Virus record (IMG/VR): IMGVR_UViG_3300010224_000016
DNA from: a virus
Direction: 5' to 3' (one strand)
Length of the DNA stretch: 50,543 bases
Part shown: piece by piece, positions 6,330-7,144 of the stretch
Layout of the letters: every line of letters starts with the position of its first letter
How positions within the stretch are numbered: the first letter of the stretch is position 1
Program-made: the position numbers and the translations under genes
Notes under the pieces: generated by a model
The model's database searches: none
What the model saw: only the letters and a program-made list of their open reading frames with translations
Told to the model about the DNA's origin: nothing

Positions 6330-7144
6330 CCGCGTACTATAACGAGTTCGACCCGTACGCGGCAGCGTGGATACGGAACCTCATTAACGCCGGGCTTATC
6401 GCACCCGGCGTCGTAGACGAAAGGAGTATCGAAGATGTCCGCCCTGATGATCTCGACGGGTTCACCCAATGCCATTTCTTCGCCGGGCTCGGCGGATGGT
6501 CTTATGCACTTCGCCTTGCCGGATGGTCAGATCATCGATCAGTATGGACGGCTTCATGCCCCTGCCAGCCTTACAGCGCGGCAGGCGAAGGCGGCGGGTT
6601 TGCTGACGAGCGGCACCTCTGGCCTCATTTTGAATGGCTCGTCCGAAACCAGAAGCGCCGCCCTAAACGAATCTTTGGTGAGCAGGTTGCAAGTAAATTT
6701 GCGGAACCTTGGGTCGACCTTGTACACACTGACCTGGAAGCCCTGGACTACGCCTTCGGGTGTGTCCCGTTCCCGTCTGCGAGCGTCGGTGCGCCGCACA
6801 TCAGAGACAGGTTGTATTGGATGGCCGACGCCGGCAGCATCGGACGAGAAGTGGCGCTACAGCACGGTGCAGGCAGCGGAACGCCGGATCGACTCGGGCA
6901 AGCAAGTGTCGTTGGAATGCGCGGCAATGCTGACGATGAACGAGCCGGCCCGACTAACGGTTTTTGGCGCGCTGCTGACTGGCTTGCGTGCCGGGATGGA
7001 AAGTGGCGGCCAGTTGAACCCGGCACATTCCCGTTGGTTAATGGGGCTCCCGCCAGAATGGGACGACTGCGCGCCTACGGCAACGCCATCAATGCGAAAC
7101 AAGCTGAAATCTTCATAAGAAGTGCGATGGGATGTTTACCGTGA
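6326..7144 (+). CDS. DNA (cytosine-5)-methyltransferase
   Basis: The GTG start at 6326 overlaps the upstream TGA (GTGA). Motif I is FFAGLGGWS, IV is SCPCQPYS, VI is FGEQV, VIII is GAPHIRDRLYW and X is YGNAI. Sampled GC3 over 6782..6838 is about 84 percent. Confidence 0.9.
   Translation: MTAYYNEFDPYAAAWIRNLINAGLIAPGVVDERSIEDVRPDDLDGFTQCHFFAGLGGWSYALRLAGWSDHRSVWTASCPCQPYSAAGEGGGFADERHLWPHFEWLVRNQKRRPKRIFGEQVASKFAEPWVDLVHTDLEALDYAFGCVPFPSASVGAPHIRDRLYWMADAGSIGREVALQHGAGSGTPDRLGQASVVGMRGNADDERAGPTNGFWRAADWLACRDGKWRPVEPGTFPLVNGAPARMGRLRAYGNAINAKQAEIFIRSAMGCLP
6421..6437 (+). promoter_or_regulatory. Internal Shine-Dalgarno (AAGGAG) plus ATG in the +1 frame of the C5 methyltransferase gene
   Basis: AAGGAG at 6421..6426, an 8-nt spacer, then ATG at 6435. 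In the methyltransferase frame it is built from GAA-AGG-AGT (E-R-S), which uses AGG and AGT codons that are unusual for this GC-rich genome. Confidence 0.5.
6435..7118 (+). CDS. Nested out-of-frame ORF (227 aa) inside the C5 methyltransferase gene, with a WPTP / LNPxxxxWLMGxPxxW type signature
   Basis: From the ORF track. It contains [29 protein letters not shown] and [26 protein letters not shown]. It has its own canonical SD. Sampled GC3 is only about 53 percent, so it is either overprinted or a relic. Confidence 0.4.
   Translation: [227 protein letters not shown]

What the first reader, a model, noticed from the sequence alone, without database searches (positions are those of the whole stretch)
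6435..7118. A 227-codon ORF with its own consensus SD is nested out of frame inside the C5 methyltransferase gene, and both frames read like real methyltransferase sequence
**Frame A.** Frame A (6326..7144) is a complete C5 methyltransferase. It has motif I FFAGLGGWS, IV PCQPYS, VI GEQV, VIII APHIRDRLYW and X YGNAI.

**Frame B.** Frame B is the +1 frame. It opens at ATG 6435 and stays open for 684 nt, entirely inside frame A.

**Why this is more than GC-rich noise.**
1. A perfect AAGGAG sits at 6421..6426, 8 nt before the ATG. In frame A it is built from the codons AGG (Arg) and AGT (Ser) in the peptide DERSIEDV, where this genome normally uses CGN and TCG/AGC.
2. The frame-B product contains [29 protein letters not shown] (6822..6845) and [26 protein letters not shown] (7014..). 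I recognise these as the WPTPxAxD and LNPxFxEWLMGxPxxW signatures of the variable/C-terminal region of other phage and prophage cytosine methyltransferases.
3. The frame-B LNP..W block (7014..7061) lies directly before the frame-A YGNAI motif (7076..7090). That is the same order as in single-frame enzymes.

**Sampled GC3.** Over 6782..6838, GC3 is about 84 percent in frame A and about 53 percent in frame B. Frame A is therefore the compositionally native frame.

**Interpretations.** Frame B could be a genuine overprinted gene, for example a TRD-like specificity or regulatory subunit translated from an internal RBS. It could instead be a fossil of an ancestral reading frame. Either would be unusual.
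Basis: partly seen in the sequence, partly recalled or inferred. Interest (0 to 1): 0.85.

Follow-up and report, generated by a model that had tools for sequence, protein, structure and literature searches.

The report
Two-subunit methyltransferase from nested frames
The second reading frame inside this phage cytosine-methyltransferase gene is a real, conserved gene that most likely encodes the enzyme's small subunit, an arrangement already described in 1995 for the E. coli enzyme M.EcoHK31I and shown here to be very common in phages.

Summary
Frame A (6326-7144) is a C5 cytosine methyltransferase. Frame B (6435-7118, +1) is a 227-codon ORF with AAGGAG 8 nt before its ATG.

Frame B is not GC-rich noise.
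- It stays open in the +1 frame in nearly all of 160 related loci.
- It is also open in Paenibacillus and Lacticaseibacillus phage genes of 47-49% GC.
- It is longer than synonymous-codon shuffles allow.
- It fixes otherwise free third positions of frame A over A codons 80-241.
- Its GGAG and ATG are held in place by rare Arg and Ser codons in A.

Frame A carries motifs I-VIII and X. Between VIII and X it has an unconstrained, low-confidence stretch. Frame B carries WPTP modules and the only good match to motif IX.

This is the published architecture of M.EcoHK31I, in which beta is encoded entirely within alpha in another frame. Alpha has motifs I-VIII and X, beta has motif IX, and both are required.

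I therefore read the locus as a nested two-polypeptide methyltransferase, a new member of a known kind. Three things look under-appreciated:
- the scale (16,018 protein clusters);
- the absence of any Pfam or NCBIfam model;
- that gene callers often annotate only one frame.

The requirement for both subunits is inferred, not shown.

The parts
6326..7144 (+). Frame A: large (alpha-like) subunit of a C5 cytosine methyltransferase, 272 aa, GTG start overlapping the stop of the upstream ParB-like gene
   Evidence: PF00145 9e-9 and phrog_363 8e-81 over the full length. The AF2 model is confident for residues 1-170 and the helix 257-270, and its best structural matches are M.HhaI and DNMT2.
6435..7118 (+). 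Frame B (+1): nested small (beta-like) subunit, 227 aa
   Evidence: ORF listed. Hits 7,345 called proteins and 16,018 clusters at 50% identity. Conserved in the +1 frame in 79/80 and about 81/83 related loci.
6421..6426 (+). Shine-Dalgarno AAGGAG for frame B, built from frame-A codons Arg33 AGG and Ser34 AGT
   Evidence: The GGAG core is present in 72/77 homologues. AGG is used at Arg33 in 70%, against 7% of Arg codons elsewhere in these genes. AGT is used at Ser34 in 71%, against 9%.
6435..6437 (+). Frame-B start codon ATG, formed by frame-A Asp37 GAT plus the first G of Val38
   Evidence: The ATG is present at this position in 74/77 homologues. Asp37 is GAT in 73/77, whereas Asp31 is GAC 40 / GAT 37.
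6476..6502 (+). Frame A motif I (FFAGLGGWS), AdoMet binding
   Evidence: Read from the sequence. Invariant columns in 64 homologues.
6560..6577 (+). Frame A motif IV (PCQPYS), catalytic cysteine
   Evidence: Aligned to M.HhaI PCQAFS.
6677..6688 (+). Frame A motif VI (GEQV, the ENV equivalent)
   Evidence: Aligned to M.HhaI MENV.
6791..6820 (+). Frame A motif VIII (APHIRDRLYW)
   Evidence: Aligned to M.HhaI IPQKRERIYM.
6563..7048 (+). Doubly constrained core (A codons 80-241). Frame B is under purifying selection here: its conserved stretch ASLxARQAK...LGSTLYxLTWKPW...RLRAS...RTS, then the WPTP module and motif IX
   Evidence: Third-position entropy at invariant four-fold A codons is 0.60 and 0.58 bits here. 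It is 1.56, 1.43 and 1.41 bits in A codons 1-31, 38-79 and 242-264. Several columns are more conserved in B than in A.
6827..6955 (+). Frame A codons 168-210: unconserved, low-complexity linker that is only kept open. The same DNA in frame B is the variable WPTP-module region
   Evidence: Column conservation in A is 0.10-0.34, while the B residues T, P ... P, R, L are 0.71-0.95. Homologues have 1-4 WxTP modules here. AF2 pLDDT is below 50 for A residues 182-253.
6822..6845 (+). Frame B WPTPAASD module (the only copy in this window)
   Evidence: Read from the sequence. The module is repeated up to six times in homologues.
7014..7061 (+). Frame B motif IX equivalent ([16 protein letters not shown])
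   Evidence: A profile of B motif IX joined to A motif X aligns in register with M.HhaI RKLHPRECARVMGYPDSY...FGNSV (E=1.8e-4). It also aligns with a canonical phage C-terminus (E=7.2e-5). The same DNA read in frame A gives 0.084 and 0.071.
7076..7135 (+). Frame A motif X (YGNAI) and its helix
   Evidence: G252 and N253 are invariant. AF2 helix 257-270 has pLDDT about 93.

Best explanation
The locus is a cytosine-5 DNA methyltransferase made of two polypeptides read from one stretch of DNA in two frames.

**Frame A** gives the large subunit. [quoted passage not shown] These are joined by a floppy stretch that exists mainly to keep the frame open.

**Frame B** starts at its own SD and ATG inside A. 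It gives the small subunit, which has three parts:
- an unconstrained N-terminal tail of about 43 residues;
- a conserved segment that probably docks onto A;
- one WPTP module and motif IX, that is, most of what forms the DNA-recognising small domain in single-chain enzymes.

The two chains would assemble into the active enzyme, as shown experimentally for M.EcoHK31I.

**Shown here:**
- both frames are conserved and open;
- frame B is under purifying selection;
- its start signals are conserved;
- motif IX lies in B and motif X in A.

**Inferred by analogy:** that both chains are translated, associate, and are both needed for methylation. In this genome the enzyme is an orphan phage-type methyltransferase sitting between a ParB-like gene and an endonuclease VII gene. 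It is not part of a restriction-modification pair.
For: **Conservation of the ORF.**
- In 83 loci chosen by frame A, the longest open stretch is 0.99 of the gene length in A and 0.89 in the +1 frame. It is 0.19 in the +2 frame.
- In 80 bacterial genome loci chosen by frame B, B is +1 of A in 79. A is broken in only 2.
- The nested ORF is present in genes of 47-49% GC. Examples are Paenibacillus phage Diva gp49/gp50 and Lacticaseibacillus phage R23.9.

**Statistics.**
- The +1 ORF exceeds synonymous-codon shuffles in 13 of 13 genes, with p=0.023 in one and p<=0.005 in the other 12. The +2 frame never does.
- Synonymous sites are fixed only over A codons 80-241.
- The SD and ATG are conserved through rare codons.

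**Division of motifs.**
- A matches PF00145 and M.HhaI over motifs IV-VIII.
- The AF2 model of A has a confident large domain and motif X helix. Residues 182-253 have pLDDT below 50.
- Motif IX similarity is found only in frame B (against 88, 89).

**Link to split enzymes.**
- Mycobacterium phage Corndog has gp7 with motifs I-VIII followed by a stop. Its gp6, in the +1 frame, carries the TRD, motif IX and motif X.
- The nested frame-B ORF of Mycobacterium phage Royals2015 matches Corndog gp6 at 6e-8.
- Diva gp50 matches the window's B at 5e-7.

**Precedent.**
[quoted passage not shown] Alpha has motifs I-VIII and X, beta has motif IX, and both are required. N-terminal deletions of beta weaken association (PMC2836561; PMC3404938).
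Against: - No expression or activity data exist for this locus.
- AF2 gave no confident fold for B alone (pLDDT 47).
- B has no detectable sequence match to any solved structure.
- The motif IX similarity rests on pairwise profile comparisons with P of about 1e-4, not on a database-wide hit.
- Pfam does not score an A-B-A chimera better than A.
- In M.EcoHK31I the target-recognition domain was assigned to alpha. Here most of the variable region is constrained in B.
- A also has a conserved stretch of its own (NGFWxxADWxxCRDGKWRPVEPGxFPL, codons 211-241) whose role is unknown. It could mean A can recognise DNA without B.
Confidence: 0.75

Rival explanations
1. Frame B is a real overlapping gene, but its product has a job unrelated to completing the methyltransferase. 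It might be a regulator, or an anti-defence or DNA-binding protein. Frame A would be active on its own.
For: - A has motifs I-VIII and X plus its own conserved block at codons 211-241.
- B alone gives no confident fold and has no family annotation.
- The number of WPTP modules varies from 1 to 4-6, as expected for a modular binding protein.
Against: - B carries the only motif IX-like element, placed exactly where single-chain enzymes have it, just before motif X.
- Relatives exist in which the B-like chain also carries motif X, so it must be part of the enzyme (Corndog gp6).
- A and B were never found apart in 160 loci.
- The experimentally studied enzyme with this architecture needs both chains (PMC2836561).
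Confidence: 0.15
2. One polypeptide is made by two programmed ribosomal frameshifts. The ribosome would go A to B (+1) after motif VIII and B to A (-1) after motif IX. This would give a canonical single-chain enzyme, and the rest of each frame would be incidental.
For: An A-B-A chimera reads like a canonical enzyme with motifs in the standard order. The B-to-A offset is -1 in every lineage examined.
Against: - No conserved slippery heptamer lies between motif IX and the B stop. One subgroup (19 of 69 genes) has CCCGGGG or CCCGGGA there, and the window does not.
- B is kept open and constrained for about 85 codons upstream of the putative shift site, and it has a conserved SD and ATG.
- A is kept open through up to about 170 unconstrained codons in phages of about 50% GC.
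- None of these features would be maintained if only the chimera were made.
Confidence: 0.04
3. Frame B is a non-functional shadow. It would be either a chance long ORF in GC-rich DNA or a decaying fossil of an ancestral frame. Its database hits would be other mis-called shadow ORFs.
For: - The window is 60% GC.
- Reverse-strand frames are also fairly open, at 0.24-0.44 of gene length.
- Many frame-B database entries are unannotated gene-caller output.
Against: - The ORF persists in genes of 47-49% GC.
- The shuffle test is significant in 13 of 13 genes.
- Synonymous sites of A are frozen exactly where B residues are conserved, and free elsewhere.
- Some columns are more conserved in B than in A.
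- WPTP modules are conserved and duplicated in a region where A is unconstrained.
Confidence: 0.01

Closest known systems
M.EcoHK31I (E. coli HK31; Lee, Kam and Shaw 1995, as described in PMC2836561 and PMC3404938)
   Same: - The small chain is encoded entirely inside the large chain's gene, on the same strand, in another frame.
[quoted passage not shown]
- The small chain has its own start.
- The N-terminal ~40 residues of the small chain are dispensable there. Here the first ~43 codons of B are unconstrained.
   Different: - M.EcoHK31I belongs to a restriction-modification system, whereas this one is an orphan phage-type gene.
- Its target-recognition domain was assigned to alpha. Here the variable region is constrained in B and junk-like in A.
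- Sequence relatedness could not be tested.
M.AquI-type alpha/beta enzymes, and Mycobacterium phage Corndog gp7/gp6
   Same: - A C5 methyltransferase is split into two chains from overlapping ORFs, with the second ORF in the +1 frame.
- The beta-like chain begins upstream of the end of motif VIII.
- It carries the variable region and motif IX (PMC3404938).
- It is homologous to nested B ORFs.
   Different: - There the overlap is partial (209 nt in Corndog).
- Alpha stops after motif VIII.
- Motif X is on beta.
- In the window, alpha continues through the whole of beta and keeps motif X.
Single-chain C5 methyltransferases such as M.HhaI
   Same: Same catalytic motifs and fold of the large domain. 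Motifs IX and X come in the same order and register once B and A are joined.
   Different: In those enzymes all motifs are in one frame and one chain.
Nested ORFs already annotated in GenBank phage records: E. coli phage K1G ORF30 'putative Mte8-like protein' inside ORF31, and Paenibacillus phage Diva gp50 'g49 internal gene' inside gp49
   Same: They show the same nested +1 ORF in homologous methyltransferase genes.
   Different: They are annotation only. I found no paper that analyses them or links them to M.EcoHK31I.

Membership tests
M.EcoHK31I-type nested two-polypeptide C5 methyltransferase | The small-chain ORF lies entirely within the large-chain ORF, on the same strand, in a different frame | tested here: met
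   B (6435-7118) lies inside A (6326-7144) in the +1 frame. The same holds in about 160 related loci.
M.EcoHK31I-type nested two-polypeptide C5 methyltransferase | The large chain carries motifs I-VIII and X | tested here: met
   The motifs were read in the sequence. PF00145 and M.HhaI align over motifs IV-VIII. The motif X GN is invariant and its helix is confidently modelled.
M.EcoHK31I-type nested two-polypeptide C5 methyltransferase | Motif IX is on the small chain and missing from the large chain | tested here: met
   The B(IX)+A(X) profile against M.HhaI gives E=1.8e-4, and against a canonical phage C-terminus 7.2e-5. The frame-A reading of the same DNA gives 0.084 and 0.071 and aligns motif X only. 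The strength is moderate, because these are pairwise comparisons.
M.EcoHK31I-type nested two-polypeptide C5 methyltransferase | The small chain has its own translation start | tested here: met
   AAGGAG lies 8 nt before the ATG. GGAG is present in 72/77 and ATG in 74/77 homologues, maintained by rare synonymous codons in A. Actual initiation was not shown.
M.EcoHK31I-type nested two-polypeptide C5 methyltransferase | Both chains associate and are required for methylation | not testable with these tools
   This needs expression and activity assays or a multimer model. It is known for M.EcoHK31I only (PMC2836561).
M.EcoHK31I-type nested two-polypeptide C5 methyltransferase | Sequence homology to M.EcoHK31I alpha and beta | not testable with these tools
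   The original paper (PMC306636) is not held. No supplementary sequence is available.
M.AquI-type alpha/beta C5 methyltransferase | Alpha ends after motif VIII, and beta carries motifs IX and X | tested here: not met
   In the window, motif X (YGNAI, 7076-7090) is in frame A, and A runs to 7144. Corndog gp7/gp6 does fit this type.
C5 cytosine DNA methyltransferase (PF00145) | Catalytic PCQ (motif IV), ENV-type motif VI, and the AdoMet-binding fold | tested here: met
   PF00145 scores 35.6 bits against a cut-off of 22. The A-family profile hits M.HhaI at 8e-15. Foldseek places M.HhaI and DNMT2 on top.
Programmed ribosomal frameshift gene | A conserved slippery site at the frame junction, with no need for the alternative frames to stay open elsewhere | tested here: not met
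   There is no conserved heptamer. Both frames are open and constrained far beyond the junctions.
De novo overprinted gene | The product has no homologues outside the overlap, and is lineage-restricted and young | tested here: not met
   B is homologous to the beta-like chain Corndog gp6, and its C-terminus matches canonical motif IX. The arrangement spans phages of Proteobacteria, Firmicutes, Actinobacteria, Cyanobacteria and Bacteroides.

The most novel reading that the evidence does not exclude
The nested alpha/beta design may not be a curiosity of one restriction-modification enzyme. It could be the standard form of a very large, cross-phylum clade of phage and prophage orphan cytosine methyltransferases. 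In that clade the small chain would be a modular specificity subunit. Its WPTP modules (1 to about 6 copies) would be gained, lost or swapped to change or multiply target sequences without touching the catalytic chain. If so, target specificity cannot be predicted from the annotated gene for thousands of phage methyltransferases. In many genomes, including this window's source, the enzyme is currently annotated from the wrong frame or as half an enzyme.
Probability: 0.3. Interest if true: 0.6.

Novelty: new member of a known kind. Interest (0 to 1): 0.42.

Why it matters
**Textbook-quality dual coding.** This is a case in bacteria and phages of long, same-strand dual coding with both frames under selection. 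About 160 codons are doubly constrained, and the arrangement is kept across phyla.

**Annotation.**
- The frame-B family has 16,018 clusters at 50% identity.
- It has no Pfam or NCBIfam model.
- Gene callers pick one frame or the other. The window's own source annotation calls only the 227-aa frame B and misses the methyltransferase.
- PMG1 labels frame B as the methyltransferase.

**Epigenomics and phage-host work.** Predicting or engineering the specificity of these orphan methyltransferases needs both chains.

None of this changes the basic biology already established for M.EcoHK31I. The value is in scope and annotation rather than in a new mechanism.

Tried and rejected
- **AF2 of frame B.** With a 23-sequence alignment it gave pLDDT 47 and was not usable for a fold search.
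- **Sequence searches against solved structures.** I searched the B family, Diva gp50 and a chimeric motif IX + X profile. They returned only noise such as troponin and viral polymerases.
- **Pfam on A-B-A chimeras.** Chimeras from four phages did not score better than frame A alone. The Pfam model does not reach the C-terminal motifs in either reading.
- **hhalign of the whole B family against Corndog gp6.** It aligned only motif IX, with probability 22%. A closer pair, Royals2015 B against Corndog gp6, was needed.
- **Literature.**
  - 'Mte8' leads only to a passing mention in one phage genomics paper.
  - Searches on overprinting and nested-gene terms with methyltransferase found nothing specific.
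  - The Paenibacillus phage papers do not discuss the 'internal gene'.
  - The original M.EcoHK31I paper is not held.
- **Apparent single-frame relative.** I first took the single-piece tblastn hit in Mycobacterium phage Royals2015 as a single-frame relative. On inspection the alignment was in frame A only, and Royals2015 is nested like the window.
- **Readings rejected.** Chance ORF, fossil frame and double frameshifting are rejected. The reasons are given under the rival explanations.
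Full report
**1. The observation**

- Frame A runs from GTG 6326 to the stop at 7144 and encodes 272 aa. It carries motif I FFAGLGGWS, IV PCQPYS, VI GEQV, VIII APHIRDRLYW and X YGNAI.
- Frame B is the +1 frame. It opens at ATG 6435 and closes at TAA 7116-7118, giving 227 aa wholly inside A.
- AAGGAG lies at 6421-6426, 8 nt before the ATG.
- Frame A matches PF00145 (9e-9) and, over its full length, the phage family phrog_363 (8e-81).
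- Frame B has no Pfam or NCBIfam match.
- Frame B does hit phrog_31772 (1e-28) and phrog_1008 (6e-27), both labelled DNA methyltransferase.
- It also hits 7,345 called proteins in the large protein collection, none with a Pfam domain.
- A profile of 23 of these finds 16,018 clusters at 50% identity.

**2. Frame B is a maintained coding frame, not a by-product of GC content**

*Loci chosen by frame A.* I collected 80 viral loci through frame A (48-80% identity) and added PMG1, epsilon15 and the window.
- The longest open stretch, as a fraction of gene length, is 0.99 in frame A and 0.89 in the +1 frame.
- It is 0.19 in the +2 frame and 0.24-0.44 on the reverse strand.
- Many of these loci have only 46-57% GC.

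*Loci chosen by frame B.* In 80 bacterial genome loci collected through frame B, B is +1 of A in 79. Frame A is intact in all but two decayed copies.

*Synonymous-codon shuffles.* The +1 ORF is longer than these shuffles of A allow in 13 of 13 genes tested. The +2 frame always behaves as the null.
- Window: p=0.005.
- Epsilon15, Diva, KBG and K1G: p<0.001.
- R23.9: p=0.002.

*Third positions in frame A.* I measured third-position entropy at invariant four-fold-degenerate codons of A.

| A codons | Region | Entropy (bits) |
|---|---|---|
| 1-31 | before the overlap | 1.56 |
| 38-79 | overlap, N-terminal part | 1.43 |
| 80-167 | overlap, middle | 0.60 |
| 211-241 | overlap, C-terminal part | 0.58 |
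| 242-264 | overlap, tail | 1.41 |

Pro113 is CCT, Val121 is GTT and Ala152 is GCG in all 77 sequences. Each of these gives a conserved frame-B residue.

*Columns favouring B.* Several columns are more conserved in B than in A. At A codon 130, A scores 0.38 and B 1.00. At codon 154, A scores 0.45 and B 1.00. At codon 238, A scores 0.52 and B 0.97.

*Start signals.* These are conserved through codon choice.
- The GGAG core is present in 72/77 sequences.
- Arg33 is AGG in 70%, against 7% of Arg codons elsewhere in these genes.
- Ser34 is AGT in 71%, against 9% elsewhere.
- Asp37 is GAT in 73/77, which creates the ATG. The nearby Asp31 uses GAC and GAT about equally.

There A position 3 is 0.59 and B position 3 is 0.67. 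That flattening is what dual coding should produce.

**3. Anatomy of the two products**

Conservation is a mosaic.

| A codons | State |
|---|---|
| 38-79 | only A constrained |
| 80-167 | both constrained |
| 168-210 | only B constrained |
| 211-241 | both constrained |
| 242-264 | only A constrained |

- The B-only stretch is low-complexity in A. It contains the GWPTPxAxD modules of B.
- The window has one such module and homologues have up to four to six. In epsilon15, A is kept open through about 170 such codons.
- AF2 of A with 64 homologues gives a confident large domain (residues 1-170) and a confident C-terminal helix (257-270). Residues 182-253 have pLDDT below 50.
- The best structural and sequence matches of A are M.HhaI and DNMT2, over the large domain only.
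- AF2 of B alone was uninformative.

**4. What frame B contributes**

If A up to motif VIII, B from its WPTP module to its xWLMGxPxxW motif, and A from there on are joined, the result reads like a canonical single-chain enzyme.

I tested the key point, that B holds motif IX.
- A profile of the B motif joined to the A motif X aligns in register with M.HhaI RKLHPRECARVMGYPDSY...FGNSV (E=1.8e-4).
- It also aligns with the canonical C-terminus of a Mannheimia phage enzyme that matches PF00145 positions 256-322 (E=7.2e-5).
- The same DNA read entirely in frame A gives 0.084 and 0.071, with only motif X aligned.

Only the IV-VIII part of M.HhaI, which is not the stretch used, can be checked.

tblastn with IX(B)+X(A) 45-mers shows the two halves offset by -1 nt. 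This holds in phages of Lacticaseibacillus, Bacillus, Paenibacillus, Microcystis, Synechococcus, Bacteroides, Xanthomonas, Escherichia, Klebsiella and Mycobacterium.

The arrangement is therefore old and widespread. Diva gp50 matches the window's B at 5e-7.

Mycobacterium phage Corndog shows a related layout.
- gp7 has motifs I-VIII and then stops.
- gp6, in the +1 frame and overlapping gp7 by 209 nt, has a B-like N-terminus, LLPTP modules, motif IX and motif X in one chain.
- The nested B of phage Royals2015 matches gp6 at 6e-8.

B is therefore a homologue of a chain that must be part of the enzyme.

**5. Comparison with what is known**

Two natural two-chain C5 methyltransferases are described.
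- In M.AquI, the large chain has motifs I-VIII and the small chain has the rest of the variable region plus IX-X.
[quoted passage not shown] Alpha has motifs I-VIII and X, beta has motif IX, and both are needed. Progressive N-terminal deletions of beta weaken association with alpha (PMC2836561; PMC3404938).

The window matches the M.EcoHK31I layout feature by feature, and Corndog matches the M.AquI layout.

The unconstrained first ~43 codons of B echo the dispensable N-terminus of M.EcoHK31I beta.

There are three differences or gaps.
- This is an orphan gene. It sits between a ParB-HTH protein gene (5046-6329) and an endonuclease VII gene (7132-7587), not in a restriction-modification pair.
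- The variable region is constrained in B rather than A.
- I could not obtain the M.EcoHK31I sequence, so homology as opposed to shared design is untested.

A few GenBank records already annotate the nested ORF. These are K1G ORF30 'Mte8-like protein' and Diva gp50 'g49 internal gene'. I found no paper discussing them.

**6. Rival readings**

- *Double programmed frameshift.* This is unlikely. No slippery site is conserved. Both frames are open and constrained far from the junctions.
- *Chance or fossil ORF.* This is excluded by sections 2 and 3.
- *B as a real protein unrelated to methylation.* This cannot be excluded without experiments. It is disfavoured by the position of motif IX, by Corndog gp6, and by the strict co-occurrence of A and B.

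**7. Verdict**

The mechanism has a 1995 precedent, so this is a new member of a known kind.

What may be under-appreciated:
- the size and breadth of the family;
- its absence from Pfam and NCBIfam;
- the annotation errors it causes.

The source metagenome annotation of this very contig calls only frame B and misses the methyltransferase.

Confidence that both frames are coding and selected is about 0.97. Confidence that B is the required small subunit is about 0.75.

Noticed in passing
L089 (Mannheimia phage vB_MhS_587AP2, NC_028743.1), reading frame starting at locus nt 3, about nt 90-1170: The upstream methyltransferase gene gp35 reads VLVGGTPC | FTAGHMVLTDKG ... VVHN | CQS. This looks like an intein with a homing-endonuclease-like middle, inserted inside catalytic motif IV (PCQ) of a C5 methyltransferase.
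   Followed up: no
window 6326-7144 and 7132-7587; L090-L092: The source JGI gene calls for this contig list only the 227-aa frame-B product, which has no Pfam hit. The methyltransferase frame A and the endonuclease VII ORF are both left uncalled.
   Followed up: partly
L001 (Pseudomonas phage PMG1, NC_016765.1), locus nt about 1480-1520: Frame A is broken near codon 40 by a one-base frame change at DERSI|DRSIEDV. The record therefore annotates only frame B, as 'DNA methyltransferase'. This could be a sequencing error or a real frameshift.
   Followed up: partly
window 6323-6329 and 7132-7144: The genes are tightly coupled. The GTG start of frame A overlaps the TGA stop of the upstream ParB-HTH gene (GTGA). 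The endonuclease VII ORF starts 13 nt before the frame-A stop.
   Followed up: no
L094, L095, L097, L099, L100, L161 (Symbiopectobacterium sp. RP): One bacterial genome carries at least six copies of the nested methyltransferase locus, presumably in multiple related prophages.
   Followed up: no
L002, L026, L028 and about 30 other enterobacterial-type loci, between frame-B motif IX and frame-A motif X: A subgroup has a 16-codon insertion in frame A (RVEPGVARVASSNRVG) just before motif X. It contains an in-phase CCCGGGG heptamer. The window and most other lineages lack it.
   Followed up: partly
window 6095-6325: Frame A stays open for another 77 codons upstream of GTG 6326, overlapping the 3' end of the ParB-like gene. 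Homologues start at the position of 6326 (M..AYYNE), so the extension is not part of the gene.
   Followed up: yes
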